Assembly: GCA_963422265.1 (NCBI GenBank)
Contig: OY729416.1
Coordinates: 1,192,196 to 1,256,195 of the forward strand
Reading direction: 5' to 3'
Origin: Thermodesulfobacteriota bacterium
Lineage (GTDB): Bacteria > Desulfobacterota_D > UBA1144 > Nemesobacterales > UBA2774
Length of the DNA: 64,000 nucleotides
Part shown: one piece after another, positions 2,536 to 42,257 of the stretch
How the letters are laid out: every line of letters begins with the position of its first letter
Numbering within the stretch: position 1 is the stretch's first letter
The notes under the pieces: generated by a model
Database searches by the model: none
What the model was told of the DNA's origin: nothing
Seen by the model: the letters and a program-made list of their open reading frames with translations, nothing else
Program-made: the position numbers and the translations under genes

Positions 2536-3281
2536 TGCGTAAGGTTTTCTATTACTTCTTCTGGAACGTCAAAGTTAGAATACACATGCTGAACGTCGTC
2601 ACTGTCCTCAAGCGCTTCCATAAGACGGATCATGTGCTCAGCTTCTTTTCCCTCTACTTTGACACTATTCTGAGGAATCATAGTAACCTCTGCCGAGTCG
2701 TATTTTAGACCCGATTCTTGTATTGCGCTTTTAACGTCTTCTATGATCTCCGGCGGCGTTATAACAACGACCTCATCGTCCCCCGTCGCCACGTCTTCGG
2801 CACCAGCTTCAAGAGCCACTTCAAATACGCTGTCTTCATCAACGCTTGCTTCTTCAAAAGCGATCCTGCCCTTCATGTCAAATATCCATGCAACGCATCC
2901 ATTCTCACCTAAATTGCCACCGTGCTTTGTAAAAATCTTTCTTATATCCGCCACTGTCCGGTTTTTATTATCTGTAAGCGCCCTTACTAATACCGCGCTT
3001 CCTCCGGGACCGTAGCCTTCATAAGAAAGCTCGTAAAACTCATCTCCACCTATTTCCCTGGTCCCGCGCTTTACCGCCCTATCTATAGTATCATTGGGCA
3101 TATTATTGCCTTTAGCAGCAGTTATAGCCGTTCTTAATCGGGGATTCGTTTCAACATCTCCCCCACCCTGCTTAGCAGCTACAGTAAGTTCACGAATCAA
3201 CTTTGTAAAAACTTTACCCCGTTTTGCGTCAACTGCGGCTTTTCTATGCTTTATATTCGCCCATTTTGAATGTCCCGCCAT
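2532..3281 (-). CDS. yebC: YebC/PmpR family DNA-binding transcriptional regulator
   Basis: [15 protein letters not shown] signature start; 249 aa; classic position immediately upstream of ruvC. Confidence 0.9.
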
Positions 3282-3601
3282 AACAACTTAACCTCGCTTT
3301 TTAAGTACTCATTAATATTTGCATTGCTTTTTCAGTACTCATCCAAATTATATTGAAATTGTAAAGCATCTAGTGAGAATTAGCAAGCACCTAAAACCTC
3401 TGAAACTAATCAAATTCTTCAATTTCTAAAAACTTACTTGACAAAATATAAATCTAGCGTAGATAATAGTCCTGTATATATTAACTTTCATAAGCAACTC
3501 AGAGAAACTATCCCTTAGAGCATTATCGTTCATTTCCAAATTCGTTAAGCGATATTTGTTTGTATGGTAATCCTAAAATAATTAACCGAGGAACTTAGTT
3601 T

Positions 3602-37225: not shown

Positions 37226-38767
37226 GTGCCTAAAACCTTTTACGTTACTACGCCGATCTATTACGTTAATGACGTGCCTCATATAGGACACGCTTATACC
37301 ACTATTGCTGCGGACGCTATCGCCAGGTTCAGAAGGCTCGCTGGTAATGAGGTCTTTTTCCTCACCGGCAGCGACGAGCACGGGCAAAAAATCGAGATGA
37401 CGGCTAAAGCGAATGGTGAGAAGCCCATAGAGCTTGCGAATAGGGTAGTAAAAAGATTTCATGACCTCTCCGGCGCCTTAAACGTTACCAATGACGATTT
37501 TATTAGAACTACCCAGAGAAGGCATCAAGACTCCGTTGTAGAAATATTTAAGAGAATACAAAAAGCGGGAGATATTTACCTGAGTGAGTATGAGGGTTGG
37601 TATGACGTTAGGAACGAAGCATTCATAACCGAAACGCAATATGAAGAAGTAATGGCTCTACCAGAATCTAAACGTCCCAATATTGAAAAGGTAAAAGAAG
37701 AGAGCTACTTCTTCAGACTTTCCGAATACCAGGAGCGACTTCTTAATCATTATGAAAAGCACTCCGAGTTCGTGCAGCCAAGCTACAGGATGAACGAGGT
37801 TGTGCGTTTTGTAGAGAGTGGATTGAAGGACCTCAGCATAAGTAGAACCACGTTTAGCTGGGGTATACCCGTTCCAGAAAACCCACGCCACGTGATCTAC
37901 GTGTGGTTTGATGCTCTTGCAAACTATCTAACTGGCGCTGGTTTTCCAAATAATAAAACAACTTTTAATGAAATATACCCAGCAGACGTTCACCTAGTAG
38001 GTAAAGATATACTGAGATTCCACGCCGTGTATTGGCCGGCTTTTCTTATGTCGGCACAGCTACCACTCCCTAAAACGGTATTCGCCCATGGGTGGTGGAC
38101 CGTTGAAGGAGAAAAAATGTCAAAATCCTTGGGTAACGTAGTAGATCCATATGAAATGGTGGAACGGTTCGGATCGGATATATTCAGATATTTCCTGCTC
38201 CGAGAAATTCCTTTCGGACAAGATGGTGATTTCTCAAAAAGCGCTATTGTAGCAAGGGTAAACGGTGATCTTGCAAACGGCTTGGGCAACCTTATCAGCC
38301 GAGTGCTTAGTATGATTAAAAAGTATTGTAACAGCCGCGTTCCCGCCCCTTCCGCATTGAATGACATAGACCTGAAAGTCAGGGATAGTGGCTTTTCAGC
38401 AGTAGATCGTGTAGGTGATTCAATGAGCGAAATCGCCTTTCATAAGGCTTTAACGGCTATTTGGGATTTAATTGCCCATGTAAATAAATACGTTGATGAA
38501 CAAGCTCCATGGACGCTCGCAAAAGAAAATAAAGAAGAAAGATTGAATACCGTTCTCTGGACGATTATTCAATCTATAGGCGTGATTTCAATACTGCTGT
38601 CTCCTTTTATGCCAAAAGCGTCAGAAGAAATACTGAGAAGGATAGGCTTCACTGACCCGACGTCTTACCTAAAGTTGTCAAAAGCGCGTGAATGGGGATT
38701 GATAACATCAGGCTCTAAAATTGATAAGGGAAAGAACCTGTTCCCACGACATGAAGAGGATCTGTAG
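37226..38767 (+). CDS. metG: Methionine--tRNA ligase (short form, no C-terminal tRNA-binding domain), GTG start
   Basis: HIGH (HIGHAYT) and KMSKS motifs; 513 aa. Confidence 0.93.
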   Translation: MPKTFYVTTPIYYVNDVPHIGHAYTTIAADAIARFRRLAGNEVFFLTGSDEHGQKIEMTAKANGEKPIELANRVVKRFHDLSGALNVTNDDFIRTTQRRHQDSVVEIFKRIQKAGDIYLSEYEGWYDVRNEAFITETQYEEVMALPESKRPNIEKVKEESYFFRLSEYQERLLNHYEKHSEFVQPSYRMNEVVRFVESGLKDLSISRTTFSWGIPVPENPRHVIYVWFDALANYLTGAGFPNNKTTFNEIYPADVHLVGKDILRFHAVYWPAFLMSAQLPLPKTVFAHGWWTVEGEKMSKSLGNVVDPYEMVERFGSDIFRYFLLREIPFGQDGDFSKSAIVARVNGDLANGLGNLISRVLSMIKKYCNSRVPAPSALNDIDLKVRDSGFSAVDRVGDSMSEIAFHKALTAIWDLIAHVNKYVDEQAPWTLAKENKEERLNTVLWTIIQSIGVISILLSPFMPKASEEILRRIGFTDPTSYLKLSKAREWGLITSGSKIDKGKNLFPRHEEDL

Positions 38768-38840
38768 ATAGGTGCAGCTTCGTTAAGGACTACTCTTTCC
38801 AAAAAATTCAACTCGCCCGCACGGGAGGGTGTGCTTTTTA

Positions 38841-39206
38841 TTAACCATAAAGTTTCCTGATACGGCTTCTGTTTTCCAAATCCTTATCACCCTTAAAATA
38901 TATTTCTACGAGTTCAATTCTTCCCTCTCTTCCAAAGTAGGCATAAATTATTCTGAGCCCCGATTGAACCCCTTTCCCTTTTAAGGACTTAGACGTGAAC
39001 TTTCTGACTTTATATATTTCAGTTTCAGTAATTCCTGAATCGCTGATACGCTTTATGCCCTTGTTGTTTTGACCCATAAGATGAAATGGATTTAACTGGT
39101 AATTAATAAAGGTTTGCAGGTCTTCTTCAAGAGTTTTGACTTTTCTTAGCAGCTTTTTAATGTCACTTTTGAACTCCGGTAGCTGTTCAACCCTGATCTT
39201 CTTCAA
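38841..39206 (-). CDS. RelE/ParE-superfamily type II toxin (mRNA-interferase-like)
   Basis: 121 aa; C-terminal GLRIIYAYF...RIELVEIYFKGDKD resembles the RelE/ParE core; overlaps the upstream antitoxin gene by 20 bp. Confidence 0.6.
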   Translation of the reverse strand: MKKIRVEQLPEFKSDIKKLLRKVKTLEEDLQTFINYQLNPFHLMGQNNKGIKRISDSGITETEIYKVRKFTSKSLKGKGVQSGLRIIYAYFGREGRIELVEIYFKGDKDLENRSRIRKLYG

Positions 39207-39978
39207 TATAATTTCTCACTGAGTAGGCGGGAGTTCTGTAAAAAACAGCTTCATAGTCAATTTTCTCTTGATCCTCCGTGCCAAGCCAGGGTATGTCATT
39301 GTGTGAGTATTCGGCGATTTGAGAGGCGTTCATATCCGATAACCTTCCAAGAACGTTATCAATTGTGTTAAGCTCGTTTGCATTTAGGGCTGAAAGATCG
39401 GGGTTACGCAAGGGAAGATATTTTGTCTGGCTGTAACTAAAATGCCTGTTTTTCACTTTGACTACATCTTTGTTTTCTATCATATCTCCTATAATTTTTA
39501 TAAACTCAGCTGGTGTTGGACCAAATTTACTCCTGATGTAATTCGCTCCAACCAACTGTTCTTCGTGCTTCTCGTAGTAGTCAAAGTCAATAAAGTAAAG
39601 CATCTTTTGTATAACGGTTTCACCCACGTTTGGCTTTGCGCCCACTTTGTTGAGAATATACAAAAGCACTTCTTTGAACTTGATGAGATTCTTTTGAGGA
39701 ACGCTTATTCTCAAAGTCTCTTTCTTAGGCTTGGCTTCCCTACTCTTTTTAACAATGATCTCAACGCTTTCCTTATTGTTCACCAGGGCATCAATAGAGC
39801 ATTCAAAAAGCTCAGATAGCTTGTTTATCTCGTCTAATTTCGGCATTCGGACGCCGTTTTCAATATTTGATACAATCTCCCTGCTCGTACCAATAGCCTT
39901 AGCCAATTCTGCTTGGGAAAGTTCGGCACTTTGTCTTAACTGTTTTATCTTTTTGCCTAACTCTTTAGATTGAATCAT
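39187..39978 (-). CDS. HTH-XRE plus DUF4065 (Panacea/SocA-like) domain antitoxin
   Basis: Helix-turn-helix LSQAELAKAIGTSREIVSNIENG; DUF4065-like IQKMLYFIDFDYY...GANYIRSKFGPTP; start taken at the MIQSKELGKK Met (the ORF extends further, to 40092). Confidence 0.7.
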   Translation of the reverse strand: MIQSKELGKKIKQLRQSAELSQAELAKAIGTSREIVSNIENGVRMPKLDEINKLSELFECSIDALVNNKESVEIIVKKSREAKPKKETLRISVPQKNLIKFKEVLLYILNKVGAKPNVGETVIQKMLYFIDFDYYEKHEEQLVGANYIRSKFGPTPAEFIKIIGDMIENKDVVKVKNRHFSYSQTKYLPLRNPDLSALNANELNTIDNVLGRLSDMNASQIAEYSHNDIPWLGTEDQEKIDYEAVFYRTPAYSVRNYIEEDQG

Positions 39979-40176
39979 GGTTAGTGGGTTTGCCAAACTA
40001 TTTTGATATTTATTGTAATTATTGTAATATTTTATTACGAGAGTTGTAAAACTTTGTTGCATTTTTGTATTGTTGATGTGTATGTTATGCACTTAATCTT
40101 ATGTTTGGATCAAACTCCAGATAAGTGAGCAATAACTGATTTTACGTTTGTAGAAAGTGGCTAGAATCTTAGCCGT

Positions 40177-40338
40177 GATACCCAGAAAATCTTACCAAAC
40201 TTAAAAGATATTGGAGACAAGTCTGCCCATAGCCGAAGATTTAACGCTCACAGGCAGGATATTGAAAAATTACTTCCAGATATTCGGGTGTGCACGCAAG
40301 AGCTTATTTATCTTGCAGGTTTTCAAAATGGTCAATAA
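40177..40338 (+). pseudogene. Possible DUF4145-like C-terminal fragment (remnant)
   Basis: LKDIGDKSAHSRRF...IEKLLPDI...ELIYLAGF resembles the (L/I)RN.GNK.AH helix of DUF4145 domains found in RM and Abi proteins; short and unanchored. Confidence 0.25.
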
Positions 40339-40389
40339 ATCTTGCTAATTACCAGACCTTTCTATAAATTGTAAAGTTGTCTAACAATC

Positions 40390-40596
40390 CTAATCAAACC
40401 CCACCACATCCTCCTCAACCCCCAAATAAACCTCATCAATCCTTTCTTGAATCCTGATTGCCTTTTTGATTGCGGTTACAATTTTGCAGTAGTGTTTTAT
40501 ATCGTCTAAAGATAAATGTCTTCTTTTCCTGTACTTTAGCCATTTACTGCAAACCTGATAGCCGCCGATTCGGTATTCATAAACTTCTTGACTCAC
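40390..40596 (-). pseudogene. C-terminal remnant of a large type IIG/ISP-like restriction-modification enzyme
   Basis: YRIGGYQVCSKWLKYRKRRHLSLDDIKHYCKIVTAIKKAIRIQERID matches the conserved C-terminal tail of large SAM-dependent RM fusion enzymes; an in-frame stop lies 3 codons upstream, so only about 68 aa remain. Confidence 0.5.
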
Positions 40597-40627: not shown

Positions 40628-41524
40628 TTGTTTCCTACTTTTGTTAAACAAGGTATCAGTAGTAGGGTTGAACTAGTAGGCAGTATTTGCTATGCTAACA
40701 AGGTAATGAGGCCGGTAGAAACAGAAAAATGTATACGGCAGATTGTCCGTAGCTCCGTTGAGGCGTACGCAGATGGTTTTGAAACTCGCCACGTTAGAGA
40801 AGTAGACGATCTAGACGGAACTATTAACATGAAAATTCATAACGTCTTTATTGCAGCATTAGGTAAGGAGGTCCAATATTATACAGCGCTTGTGCGCTCT
40901 CTTGATAGCTCATTAGGAAATATGTTGGAGAGGATGGCAATAAACATTGCGAAGCTCTTCTATGAAGTAAATAAAAACGTAGAAGGTCCGTTAGCTGTTG
41001 AACAAACGTCAAAAATCGCGGAATTGCTTGAAGGATATAAAAATAGAAATAACCCTTTAGTCTCAAGCATATCTCATTACAAACAAATTAGAGATATAGG
41101 AATCACGTCAGACTCAGCAACGAAAGTCCACGTGAGCGATTACTATTTGATAGACAAAGAAACAAACGAACATTACTTGATTGAATTAAAGATTGGTGGA
41201 GACTTGGACAATAAAAAAGCTCGTTCGGAGAAGGAAGCGATTTTCGAACAGTATGCAATACTCTCAAATAAATTGGGTAAGAATGCAAGTATAAAATGTT
41301 ACTTTGCTACAGCTTATAATAGATTTGGAGAAGGTAAAGAGTGGAAACAATCGAGAGTCTTGCAATTCTTTTCAAAAGATGAACTCCTTATCGGGAAAGA
41401 CTTTTGGAACTTCGTATGCTGTAGTGAAAAGGGTTATGACATTGTGATTGATGAATACAAAGAGTCAGCGCATTTAGTAAAATCAGCATTGCGCAACATC
41501 AAAGAGACGTATTTATATGGATAA
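40628..41524 (+). CDS. Putative type II restriction endonuclease (PD-(D/E)xK)
   Basis: D...ELK motif (VSDYYLIDKETNEHYLIELKIGG); no other domain found; 8-bp overlap with the downstream methyltransferase gene. Confidence 0.45.
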   Translation: MFPTFVKQGISSRVELVGSICYANKVMRPVETEKCIRQIVRSSVEAYADGFETRHVREVDDLDGTINMKIHNVFIAALGKEVQYYTALVRSLDSSLGNMLERMAINIAKLFYEVNKNVEGPLAVEQTSKIAELLEGYKNRNNPLVSSISHYKQIRDIGITSDSATKVHVSDYYLIDKETNEHYLIELKIGGDLDNKKARSEKEAIFEQYAILSNKLGKNASIKCYFATAYNRFGEGKEWKQSRVLQFFSKDELLIGKDFWNFVCCSEKGYDIVIDEYKESAHLVKSALRNIKETYLYG

Positions 41525-42257
41525 AAAATATCAAATTGTAAATGCTGATAGTAAAGAGTACTTAAAGGGGCTACCTAATAACTCTATCGACTTCATTCTA
41601 ACTGATCCCCCTTACAATATAAGTCAATATTCAACTGGCAATATAAAGTTTGGCTGGCGAGCAGACATTAACAACGATCTGGCTGAATGGGATAAAAAGT
41701 TTTCCCCCCTGGATTTTAGAGATGAGTTCTTAAGAGTCTTAAAACCTACAGGGAATATCTTTGCTTTTTGCTCCTATAATATAATTGGCAAATGGCATGA
41801 AGTATTTGATCCTGTTTTCGATACGTTTCAGTTTTTCGTGTGGCATAAAAAGAATCCCGTTCCAAAATTTCGGAAAGCCGGCTTCTTAAATAGCTGTGAA
41901 CTCGTAGTATGTATGTGGAATAAAGGACACACTTGGAACTTTGGCAAACAAAATGAGATGCACAATTTCTTTGAAAGTCCAATCTGCATGGGACCAGAAA
42001 GATTAAAAAAACCGAAGCACCCTACGCAAAAGCCAGTAGGGCTATTAAAACACTTTATCAAAATAGCTTCAAATGAAGACGATACTATATTAGACCCTTT
42101 TATGGGAGTTGGCTCCACTGGCGTTGCCTCTTTAAGAATGAAAAGGAAATTTATAGGAGTAGAAATAGATAAAGAATACTATGATGCTGCTCAAGAAAGA
42201 CTAGATTCCATTCCGACGGATTTGTTTTCAAGAGTGTCTGCTATTGCAAAGACGTGA
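41517..42257 (+). CDS. Beta-class DNA methyltransferase (N6-adenine or N4-cytosine; DPPY motif IV, then FMGVGST motif I)
   Basis: ILTDPPYN near the N-terminus and DPFMGVGSTGVA...FIGVEID at the C-terminus; 246 aa. Confidence 0.85.
   Translation: MDKKYQIVNADSKEYLKGLPNNSIDFILTDPPYNISQYSTGNIKFGWRADINNDLAEWDKKFSPLDFRDEFLRVLKPTGNIFAFCSYNIIGKWHEVFDPVFDTFQFFVWHKKNPVPKFRKAGFLNSCELVVCMWNKGHTWNFGKQNEMHNFFESPICMGPERLKKPKHPTQKPVGLLKHFIKIASNEDDTILDPFMGVGSTGVASLRMKRKFIGVEIDKEYYDAAQERLDSIPTDLFSRVSAIAKT

What the first reader, a model, noticed from the sequence alone, without database searches (positions are those of the whole stretch)
38841..39978. XRE-HTH/DUF4065 (Panacea-type) antitoxin coupled to a RelE/ParE-like toxin
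A 263-aa HTH-XRE plus DUF4065 protein sits directly upstream of a 121-aa protein with a RelE/ParE-like C-terminal core, and the two overlap by 20 bp. Panacea (DUF4065) domains are known to neutralise very diverse toxins. This toxin is larger than classical RelE, and its N-terminal approximately 60 aa are not assignable, so this particular pairing may be an undescribed PanAT variant. A 2x9-bp direct repeat (TATTGTAAT) at 40011-40028 in the putative promoter could be the autoregulatory operator.
Basis: partly seen in the sequence, partly recalled or inferred. Interest (0 to 1): 0.6.

Follow-up and report, generated by a model that had tools for sequence, protein, structure and literature searches.

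The report
Panacea antitoxin with RelE/HigB2-like toxin
This is an intact two-gene toxin-antitoxin module: a DNA-binding Panacea-domain antitoxin followed by a RelE/HigB2-type toxin that probably cuts mRNA on the ribosome; it belongs to a large, widespread, untested family of a kind that has already been catalogued, so it is a solid but fairly ordinary find.

Summary
On the minus strand, a 263-aa HTH_3 + SocA_Panacea (PF13274) protein (39978..39187) overlaps by 20 nt a 121-aa ORF (39206..38841, TTG start).

The pair is strictly co-inherited. 79 of 80 related loci across many phyla have the HTH-Panacea gene directly upstream, as do 4 of 4 more distant relatives. No third gene is conserved.

The 2x9-bp repeat is real but strain-specific; a sister strain with a 96%-identical antitoxin lacks it. 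The conserved operator-like element is a 17-bp palindrome, TGTAA-N7-TTACA, present twice 22-23 bp apart over the promoter (window 40023-40039 and 40045-40061).

Kurata et al. 2022 (Dataset S1, cluster T14) already list untested HTH-PanA + HigB-2-like pairs.

Verdict: new member of a known kind, with modest interest.

The parts
39187..39978 (-). panA-like antitoxin gene, 263 aa, with ATG at 39978 and stop codon at 39187-39189
   Evidence: ORF list. Pfam gives HTH_3 + SocA_Panacea. Homologues are 255-270 aa and start at the equivalent Met. The database copy identical to the window (P0123) is called 28 aa longer, at 291 aa.
39784..39948 (-). Cro/C1-type HTH DNA-binding domain (aa 11-65)
   Evidence: Pfam HTH_3 E 9e-16. 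In the AF2 model aa 1-66 are confident. Foldseek matches the P22 c2 repressor, C.BclI, C.AhdI and SinR at rmsd about 1 A.
39286..39612 (-). Panacea (SocA_Panacea / DUF4065) domain, aa 123-231. The structured core in the model spans about aa 93-228.
   Evidence: Pfam PF13274, 63 bits against a gathering score of 25.7; AF2 model.
39190..39285 (-). Conserved C-terminal tail of PanA (aa 232-263), motif YE(A/S)VFYRTPxxSVRxY. It lies outside the Pfam Panacea model and is predicted disordered in the monomer. It is the candidate toxin-neutralising segment (inference).
   Evidence: pLDDT is below 50 for aa 229-263. Conservation of the tail is 0.79, against 0.78 for the core and 0.59 for the HTH, over 73 sequences including distant pairs. 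Invariant residues are listed.
38841..39206 (-). Toxin gene, 121 aa, TTG start, RelE/HigB2-like fold. Putative catalytic residues are R85, Y103 and K105, plus a basic residue on beta2 (K69).
39187..39206 (-). 20-nt overlap of panA stop and toxin start, implying translational coupling
   Evidence: Overlaps of 4-26 nt are found in most of the 72 related loci with both genes complete and in 4 distant ones.
40023..40039 (-). Promoter-proximal operator-like palindrome CGTAATAAAATATTACA. It lies between the predicted -35 and -10 hexamers and overlaps the -10.
   Evidence: PWM score 13.7, the top score of about 128,000 window positions. It also shows up within the inverted repeat I1. The family motif is present in two copies in 66 of 73 upstream regions, against about 2% of shuffled sequences.
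40045..40061 (-). Distal, weaker operator-like palindrome TGCAACAAAGTTTTACA, 22 bp from the first. Its right half is the predicted -35 hexamer.
   Evidence: PWM score 7.9; only 12 of 127,966 window positions score >=8. The spacing equals the family spacing of 22-23 bp. The site is conserved in sister strain L087.
40021..40050 (-). Predicted sigma-70-type promoter: -35 TTTACA (40050-40045), 18-nt spacer, -10 TACAAT (40026-40021)
   Evidence: Consensus scan, 10 of 12 matches. This is a consensus match only.
40011..40028 (+). 2x9-bp tandem direct repeat TATTGTAAT (ATTACAATA on the gene strand). It is a strain-specific duplication that doubles the TACAAT -10-like hexamer.
   Evidence: Unique in the window with 0 expected by chance. 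It lies in a 13-nt insertion absent from sister strain L087 and from the other relatives.

Best explanation
This is a chromosomal type II toxin-antitoxin operon of the PanAT kind.

The 121-aa protein is a RelE/HigB2-type toxin. It most likely enters the ribosomal A site and cleaves translating mRNA, using an Arg-Tyr-Lys active site (R85, Y103, K105, helped by a basic residue on strand beta2).

The 263-aa protein is its antitoxin and repressor. Its N-terminal Cro/C1-type HTH dimerises on two 17-bp palindromes (TGTAA-N7-TTACA, 22 bp apart) that overlap the promoter, and so autoregulates the operon. The rest of the protein binds and inactivates the toxin. I infer that the strongly conserved but intrinsically disordered C-terminal tail (aa 232-257) folds onto the toxin, while the globular Panacea domain acts as a scaffold or sensor.

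The two genes are translationally coupled by a 20-nt overlap and move between genomes as a two-gene unit.

Shown: the domain content, the fold, conservation of the catalytic-position residues, the strict gene pairing, and the conserved operator motif.
Inferred: toxicity, mRNA cleavage, which PanA segment neutralises the toxin, and repression.
For: Domains and fold
- Pfam finds HTH_3 + SocA_Panacea in the upstream protein.
- The toxin model has pLDDT 86 and pTM 0.83.
- In Foldseek, 42 of the top 50 hits are RelE/YoeB/HigB/YafQ-type toxins; the others are PfiT, Cami1 and two chance hits.

Sequence link to HigB-2
- Family profiles match HigB-2 at E 0.002 and E 3.7e-5.
- These alignments place R85, Y103 and K105 on HigB2 Arg64, Tyr82 and Lys84. 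Alanine mutants of those HigB2 residues lose 350- to 3000-fold activity (PMC5416850).
- R85 is invariant and Y103 and K105 are at least 90% conserved, even among relatives only 28-43% identical.

Pairing
- 79 of 80 related loci from many phyla have a full-length HTH-Panacea homologue (51-72% identity) directly upstream; the 80th locus is truncated.
- 4 of 4 toxins at 38-43% identity show the same arrangement.
- Gene overlaps are mostly 4-26 nt.
- No third gene is conserved: the largest cluster of flanking genes occurs in only 4 loci.

Operator
- Two copies of the palindrome occur in 66 of 73 upstream regions. Among shuffled or other regions about 2% have even one copy.
- Both copies are present in the window, 22 bp apart.

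Antitoxin tail
- The tail is conserved yet has low pLDDT.

Toxicity of the domain
- The same toxin domain forms the C-terminal tip of a 3334-aa haemagglutinin-repeat protein.

Precedent
- PanA proteins form complexes with and neutralise diverse toxins, and many carry an HTH (PMC8832971).
- In multidomain PanAs, segments outside the Panacea domain do the neutralising (PMC10440598).
Against: - No member of this toxin family has been tested. The window protein hits no curated toxin model, and only 3 of 39 distant relatives give weak sub-threshold ParE_toxin or RelE hits.
- The fourth HigB2 active-site residue, Arg51, aligns to a non-conserved position (T71). The equivalence with K69 is my inference.
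- Fold similarity alone cannot separate mRNases from ParE gyrase poisons.
The role of the tail therefore rests only on the combination of conservation and predicted disorder. The low pLDDT could also reflect the shallow 45-sequence alignment.
- The window's promoter has diverged from its clade. The TTGCAA/TATAAT hexamers seen in the sister strain are altered, two insertions are present, and there is no Shine-Dalgarno sequence before the ATG. Expression in this strain is therefore uncertain.
- The PWM was trained on the same upstream regions on which it was counted.
Confidence: 0.75

Rival explanations
1. The toxin is a ParE-type DNA gyrase poison rather than an mRNA endonuclease. The module would still be a PanAT pair, but its target would be gyrase.
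Confidence: 0.08
2. The module's main role is anti-phage abortive infection. The Panacea domain senses a phage cue and releases or activates the RNase, and classical TA addiction or stress functions are secondary. The biochemical parts are the same as in the best explanation; this is a rival about biological role, not about parts.
For: The module sits in a low-GC stretch of about 3.6 kb (35-39% GC against 41-46% in the flanks). That stretch also holds a TdeIII-type restriction enzyme, an N6/N4 methyltransferase and a Type ISP remnant. Relatives lie next to HsdR, Fic, Bro-N and PD-(D/E)XK genes. The region upstream of panA differs between sister strains. The NetFlax authors hypothesise a sensor role for Panacea (PMC10440598).
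Against: There is no PADLOC hit beyond generic HTH models. No homologue was found on phage, plasmid or IMG/VR viral contigs. There is no experimental link. Neighbourhood in one window is weak evidence.
Confidence: 0.3
3. The antitoxin works like Caulobacter SocA (type VI TA). It would not sequester the toxin but would act as an adaptor that delivers it to ClpXP for degradation.
For: The Pfam family is named after SocA, and there is a weak NCBIfam SocA_antitoxin match at aa 117-236.
Against: The NCBIfam SocA score is 23.8 bits against a cutoff of 190. SocB is an unrelated toxin that blocks the DnaN sliding clamp (my knowledge, not checked here). Tested PanAs form stable complexes with their toxins (PMC8832971). 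RelE-type toxins are classically neutralised by binding.
Confidence: 0.04
4. The locus is an inactive or decaying copy, or a regulator with a non-toxic partner, and does nothing in this strain.
For: The promoter is rearranged relative to the sister strain, there is no Shine-Dalgarno sequence, and the toxin has a TTG start. Adjacent gene remnants show local decay.
Against: Both ORFs are intact, full-length and keep every family-invariant residue. The TTG start and 20-nt overlap are shared with the closest relatives. A 10-of-12 promoter match and both operator sites are present.
Confidence: 0.08

Closest known systems
PanAT systems, in particular toxin cluster pT15/T14 of Kurata et al. 2022 (PNAS 119:e2102212119, Dataset S1)
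   Same: The antitoxin has a Panacea/DUF4065 domain, usually with an N-terminal HTH. Gene order is antitoxin then toxin, with a small overlap or gap. The toxin is annotated 'hypothetical protein' with no CDD domain, and its best remote match is V. cholerae HigB-2, followed by the rest of the RelE/YoeB/YafQ/ParE fold family. The cluster is untested ('notest').
   Different: The listed T14 members are RefSeq Bacteroidetes, Saccharibacteria, Cryosericota and methanogens. The window's relatives are mostly MAGs of Thermodesulfobacteriota, Nitrospirota, Acidobacteriota, Planctomycetota, Ignavibacteria and others. I could not obtain T14 sequences, so whether this is the same homologous cluster or a sister cluster is unknown.
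Vibrio cholerae HigB2-HigA2 (PDB 5JA8, 5MJE, 8A0X; Hadzi et al. 2017)
   Different: Gene order is reversed in higBA2, where the toxin comes first. HigA2 is small and has no Panacea domain, and its disordered neutralising segment is N-terminal. The window toxin has an insertion of about 18 aa between alpha2 and beta2. HigB2 Arg51 has no conserved counterpart at the aligned position.
RelBE / YefM-YoeB / DinJ-YafQ type II modules
   Different: Those antitoxins use RHH or Phd/YefM DNA-binding folds and lack Panacea. The window toxin does not reach the threshold of any Pfam RelE/ParE/YoeB/YafQ model.
CdiA-CT / polymorphic toxin tips with a RelE-like fold (for example K. pneumoniae 342 CdiA-CT, PDB 6CP9)
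   Different: The window protein is a stand-alone cytoplasmic toxin paired with an antitoxin. It is not a secreted effector paired with an immunity protein.

Membership tests
PanAT (Panacea-domain toxin-antitoxin systems) | The antitoxin carries the Panacea / DUF4065 domain (Pfam PF13274) | tested here: met
   63 bits against a gathering score of 25.7, aa 123-231, covering 112 of 113 model positions.
PanAT (Panacea-domain toxin-antitoxin systems) | A conserved two-gene (at most three-gene) neighbourhood with one small adjacent partner | tested here: met
   79 of 80 loci and 4 of 4 distant loci keep the pair. No third gene is conserved.
PanAT (Panacea-domain toxin-antitoxin systems) | The partner is toxic when expressed alone and is neutralised by PanA, with direct complex formation | not testable with these tools
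   This needs expression assays and pull-down.
Kurata 2022 PanT cluster T14 (HigB-2-like) | Sequence clustering with the listed T14 toxins (for example WP_013446501.1, WP_015641600.1) | not testable with these tools
   The T14 sequences were not retrievable. Only the shared properties match: HTH-PanA, A|T order, HigB-2 as best remote hit (against 9, 58).
RelE/ParE toxin superfamily | The fold: an N-terminal strand and two helices packed on an antiparallel beta-sheet | tested here: met
RelE/ParE toxin superfamily | A match to a curated family model (Pfam ParE_toxin PF05016, RelE PF06296, Gp49 PF05973, YafQ, YoeB; NCBIfam) | tested here: not met
   There is no toxin-family hit at E<=1 for the window protein. 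None of 3244 homologous clusters has a precomputed Pfam domain among those listed. Only 3 of 39 distant members give weak ParE_toxin or RelE hits.
RelE/HigB2-type ribosome-dependent mRNases | Conserved basic/aromatic active site (HigB2 Arg51, Arg64, Tyr82, Lys84; RelE K52, K54, R61, R81, Y87) | tested here: inconclusive
   Three of the four HigB2 positions are matched by R85, Y103 and K105, and these are conserved family-wide. Arg51 aligns to the variable T71. Invariant K69, two residues earlier, may substitute (inference). The RelE residue numbers are from my own knowledge.
RelE/HigB2-type ribosome-dependent mRNases | Ribosome-dependent cleavage of mRNA in the A site | not testable with these tools
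   A biochemical assay is required.
HigBA modules | Reversed gene order (toxin upstream of antitoxin) and a HigA-type antitoxin | tested here: not met
   The antitoxin gene is upstream in the window and in all related loci. The antitoxin has a Panacea domain, which HigA lacks.
SocAB (type VI TA) | A SocA equivalog antitoxin | tested here: not met
   NCBIfam NF047745 scores 23.8 bits against a cutoff of 190.

The most novel reading that the evidence does not exclude
This pair represents a very large, phylum-spanning and wholly uncharacterised PanAT subtype: at least 3244 toxin clusters at 90% identity and 784 at 50%. In this reading, a HigB2-like mRNase is held in check not by the Panacea core but by a conserved, intrinsically disordered C-terminal tail of PanA (YE[AS]VFYRTPxxSVRxY). 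The Panacea domain serves as a trigger sensor, for example for phage infection. The same toxin domain has also been recruited as the tip of CdiA-like polymorphic toxins.
Probability: 0.25. Interest if true: 0.5.

Novelty: new member of a known kind. Interest (0 to 1): 0.3.

Why it matters
- Annotation gap. The toxin family has no Pfam or NCBIfam model. The database copies identical to the window sequence are mis-called: the toxin as 78 aa from an internal Met, and the antitoxin as 291 aa. The alignment, the fold assignment and the conserved two-site operator produced here would allow thousands of 'hypothetical protein' genes in environmental genomes to be annotated as RelE/HigB2-like PanT toxins.
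- Test case for the Panacea question. The pairing is strict, and the antitoxin has a clean three-part architecture: HTH, Panacea, and a conserved disordered tail. This makes it a convenient system for asking whether the Panacea domain neutralises the toxin or senses a trigger.
- Limits. None of this overturns current understanding. The kind of system was described in 2022-2023.

Tried and rejected
1. AF2 complex prediction. I built a PanA-linker-toxin fusion with a paired alignment of 27 loci (A2).
2. Source genome record. Exact look-ups of P0012 and P0123 found no contig on record. The organism is therefore known only by its relatives: the closest are Thermodesulfobacteriota MAGs at 65-67% toxin identity.
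3. Membership in Kurata's cluster T14. The representative search and a profile search returned no named RefSeq members from the T14 organisms, so this stays unresolved.
4. Phage or plasmid carriage. There was no match in PLSDB, INPHARED or IMG/VR.
5. C-terminal tail against PDB sequences. Nothing was found; the best E was 1.2.
6. PanA model against the PDB. Only the HTH domain matched, and no solved Panacea-like structure surfaced.
7. The 2x9-bp repeat as operator. Rejected, because it is absent from the sister strain and from the rest of the family.
8. GTG 40092 (301 aa) or the 291-aa call as the PanA start. Rejected, because homologues start at the Met equivalent to 39978 and the extension would translate the AT-rich promoter.
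9. Met44 as the toxin start (the 78-aa database call). Rejected, because residues 5-43 are conserved, include invariant K17, L19, L26, D29 and H42, and form beta1-alpha1-alpha2.
10. An intrinsic terminator for the operon. The scan found none on the minus strand. The hairpins at 38814-38834 are on the plus strand, just downstream of the methionyl-tRNA synthetase (metG-like) gene.
Full report
**1. What is in the sequence**

Both genes are on the minus strand.
- The upstream ORF runs from ATG 39978 to its stop codon at 39187-39189 and encodes 263 aa. The longest possible reading starts at GTG 40092 and gives 301 aa.
- The downstream ORF runs from TTG 39206 to its stop codon at 38841-38843 and encodes 121 aa.
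- The two overlap by 20 nt.

Pfam places HTH_3 at aa 11-65 (E 9e-16) and SocA_Panacea/DUF4065 at aa 123-231 (E 6e-17, 63 bits against a gathering score of 25.7) in the upstream protein. The 121-aa protein hits nothing in Pfam, NCBIfam or PADLOC, even at E<=1. Its 'RelE/ParE-like core' cannot be verified with the HMMs it suggested.

**2. The toxin**

*Family and gene start.* A database search found 386 homologous clusters, none with a Pfam domain; JGI labels some of them as COG-type 'RelE'. In an alignment of 42 homologues the whole length is conserved, including the N-terminal 43 residues. Invariant residues are K17, L19, L26, D29, H42, K66, K69, F70, L75, G77, G79, G83, R85, E101, Y103, K105 and R115. 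The gene therefore starts at the TTG, not at Met44 as in the 78-aa database copy P0012. The closest relatives have TTG at the same position.

*Fold.* AlphaFold2 with this alignment gives pLDDT 86 and pTM 0.83, with the topology beta1-alpha1-alpha2-(short strand)-beta2-beta3-beta4-alpha3.
- Foldseek against the PDB returns RelE, YoeB, HigB2, YafQ and related toxins for 42 of the top 50 hits.

*Sequence link to HigB-2.* The family profile matches HigB-2 at E 0.002. A broader profile of relatives only 28-43% identical matches at E 3.7e-5. In these alignments R85, Y103 and K105 fall on HigB2 Arg64, Tyr82 and Lys84. Alanine substitutions of those residues reduce HigB2 activity 350-, 1200- and 3000-fold (PMC5416850). 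R85 is invariant, and Y103 and K105 are at least 90% conserved, even in the broad alignment. HigB2 Arg51 aligns to a variable position (T71). The invariant K69 sits two residues earlier on the same strand and may take that role, but this is an inference.

*Size of the family.* An exhaustive profile search finds 784 representatives at 50% identity (434 at E<=1e-10). A profile search of the 90% clusters finds 3244. Only 3 of 39 distant members give weak, sub-threshold ParE_toxin or RelE hits. This is a distinct, unmodelled branch of the RelE/ParE superfamily whose nearest characterised member is HigB2.

**3. The antitoxin**

The AF2 model (45 sequences, mean pLDDT 71) divides the protein into four parts:
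- a confident HTH (aa 1-66);
- a disordered linker (aa 70-92);
- a confident globular core (about aa 93-228) that contains the Pfam Panacea match;
- a C-terminal stretch (aa 229-263) with pLDDT below 50.

That tail is nevertheless as conserved as the core. The mean frequency of the commonest residue is 0.79 for the tail, 0.78 for the core and 0.59 for the HTH. The motif YE(A/S)VFYRTPxxSVRxY is kept even in pairs whose toxins are only about 40% identical to the window's.

A conserved segment that is disordered on its own is the signature of the toxin-binding parts of RelB, Phd and HigA2 (my knowledge for RelB and Phd; for HigA2).

The HTH superposes on the P22 c2 repressor, the R-M controller proteins C.BclI and C.AhdI, and SinR at about 1 A rmsd. 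These are known as dimeric binders of palindromic operators (my knowledge).

**4. The pair as a unit**

A scan of one genome per species found 543 relatives of the toxin. The best 80 come from Thermodesulfobacteriota (closest, 65-67% identity), Nitrospirota, Acidobacteriota/Aminicenantes, Planctomycetota, Ignavibacteria, Bacteroidota, Chloroflexia, Chlamydiae, Omnitrophota and others, plus one Aenigmatarchaeota MAG.
- In 79 of the 80, a full-length homologue of the HTH-Panacea protein (51-72% identity) lies immediately upstream. The remaining locus has only 110 nt of upstream sequence.
- Overlaps of 4-26 nt are the rule.
- Four further toxins at 38-43% identity are likewise preceded by an overlapping HTH_3 + SocA_Panacea gene.
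- Flanking genes are not conserved. The largest flank cluster occurs in 4 loci.

The two genes are therefore the unit of inheritance and transfer. No copy was found in the plasmid, phage or viral-contig collections.

**5. Regulation, and the 2x9-bp repeat**

*The conserved motif.* Upstream regions of the relatives share a 17-bp palindrome, consensus TGTAAGATAATCTTACA, with T1, G2, A5, A15 and C16 (and A17 at 87%) nearly invariant. Two copies occur in 66 of 73 distinct upstream regions, 22-23 bp apart. The downstream copy overlaps the -35 hexamer (TTGACA) and the spacer. About 2% of shuffled sequences, and about 1% of other 150-nt windows from the same loci, have even one copy. One caveat applies: the matrix was trained on these same regions.

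*The window.* The best match is at 40023-40039 (CGTAATAAAATATTACA, score 13.7). A weaker one is at 40045-40061 (TGCAACAAAGTTTTACA, score 7.9), 22 bp away. Only 12 of 127,966 positions in the window reach a score of 8. The promoter scan puts -35 TTTACA at 40050-40045 and -10 TACAAT at 40026-40021, so both sites overlap promoter elements.

*The repeat.* TATTGTAAT x2 at 40011-40028 is real and unique. However, it lies in a 13-nt insertion that is absent from a sister strain. That strain's PanA is 96% identical and sits at the same place, next to the same methionyl-tRNA synthetase gene (L087). The repeat is also absent from the other relatives. It duplicates the TACAAT hexamer and the right half-site of the proximal palindrome. 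It looks like a recent slippage event, not the operator.

*Divergence in the window.* The sister strain and the closest clade have a TTGCAA...TATAAT promoter ending about 9 nt before the ATG, a leaderless-like arrangement. The window has changed these hexamers, gained a second 12-nt insertion, and has no Shine-Dalgarno sequence. Expression in this strain is plausible but not certain.

**6. Context**

- On one side lie housekeeping genes on the plus strand: a pseudouridine synthase, thymidylate kinase, a DNA polymerase III delta'-like gene, and methionyl-tRNA synthetase ending at 38767.
- The TA pair is convergent with these.
- On the other side lie a 68-aa remnant of a Type ISP restriction enzyme C-terminal domain (40390-40596, minus strand), a TdeIII-type restriction endonuclease (40628-41524) and an overlapping N6/N4 DNA methyltransferase (41517-42257).
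- Beyond those the housekeeping genes resume: CDGSH, AhpC, F420 ligase, GDPD and dihydroxy-acid dehydratase.
- GC is 35-39% from about 38.8 to 42.4 kb, against 41-46% on either side.
- In the sister strain a DUF5343 gene replaces the restriction-modification genes.

The module sits at the edge of a small variable defence-type islet.

**7. Comparison with what is known**

Kurata et al. 2022 defined PanAT systems. They found HTH N-terminal domains in 343 PanAs and ParE-type domains among the partner toxins. Their Dataset S1 contains cluster pT15/T14, with about 20 RefSeq members: PanA mostly carries an HTH, the order is antitoxin then toxin, and the 'hypothetical protein' toxin gives HHpred 99.7% to HigB-2. 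All members are untested. Further RelE/ParE-like clusters (T28, T59) are also listed. Ernits et al. 2023 list RelE/ParE among the most common folds in the TA network.

The architecture found here is therefore a known kind. I could not obtain T14 sequences, so I cannot say whether this family is T14 itself or a sister cluster.

It is not a HigBA module in the strict sense, because the gene order and the antitoxin type differ. It is not a SocAB system either (23.8 bits against a cutoff of 190).

**8. Verdict**

It is wrong on three details: the novelty of the pairing, the 'unassignable' N-terminus, and the repeat as operator.

Most likely mechanism, with about 0.75 confidence:
- the toxin is a RelE/HigB2-like ribosome-dependent mRNase;
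- it is neutralised by direct binding of PanA;
- the PanA HTH autorepresses the operon at two palindromic operators.

The specific role of the C-terminal tail is a testable inference. A ParE-like gyrase target is unlikely (about 0.08). An anti-phage role is possible (about 0.3) but unsupported by direct evidence.

Novelty: a new member of a known kind, in a large family that still lacks a curated model or any experiment. Interest: 0.3.

Noticed in passing
window 38841-39206 and 39187-40092 (database copies P0012, P0123): The database copies identical to the window sequence have different starts from the family consensus. The toxin is called as 78 aa from internal Met44, missing the conserved N-terminal 43 aa and the TTG start. 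The antitoxin is called as 291 aa, reading into the AT-rich promoter. A sister strain (L087) also has the 78-aa toxin call.
   Followed up: yes
P0263 (3334 aa, from the representative search), C-terminal residues about 3210-3329: A giant protein with filamentous-haemagglutinin repeats (Pfam Fil_haemagg_2) ends in a domain of this same toxin family (profile E 1.2e-35; 34.5% identity to the window toxin). This suggests the domain also serves as a CdiA-like polymorphic-toxin tip. The protein additionally holds two copies of an uncharacterised repeat of about 140 aa just before the toxin domain.
   Followed up: partly
window 40628-42257 (+): A TdeIII-type type II restriction endonuclease gene (298 aa) overlaps by 8 nt an N6/N4 DNA methyltransferase gene (246 aa). 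This looks like an intact R-M pair in the same low-GC islet as the TA module.
   Followed up: partly
window 40390-40596 (-): A 68-aa ORF matches only the last 47 positions or so of the Type ISP restriction enzyme C-terminal specificity domain (PF18135). It is a gene remnant, and the 40100-40390 stretch next to it has no long ORF.
   Followed up: no
window 40370-40386: A further palindromic match to the PanA operator matrix (TGTAAAGTTGTCTAACA; score 10.6 on one strand and 8.9 on the other) lies about 390 nt upstream of panA. It overlaps a promoter-like site on the minus strand (40397-40368). It could be an orphan operator or chance.
   Followed up: no
window 39952-39970 and 39989-40007: A 19-nt imperfect direct repeat (84%) links the first codons of panA with its 5' untranslated region. 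Together with the 13-nt and 12-nt insertions relative to the sister strain, it points to small duplications having remodelled this promoter region.
   Followed up: partly
L087 (sister strain, Logan ERR11641160) versus window 40100-40420: Synteny with the window holds on the methionyl-tRNA synthetase side. It breaks about 100 nt upstream of the operators, where the sister strain has a DUF5343 gene in place of the Type ISP remnant and the R-M genes. This marks a strain-variable insertion hotspot.
   Followed up: partly
L083/L084, L085, L081/L082, L086 (distant relatives): Distant copies of the pair lie next to Fic, type I HsdR, Bro-N, PD-(D/E)XK and PIF1/AAA helicase genes. These neighbourhoods are typical of defence or mobile regions.
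   Followed up: no
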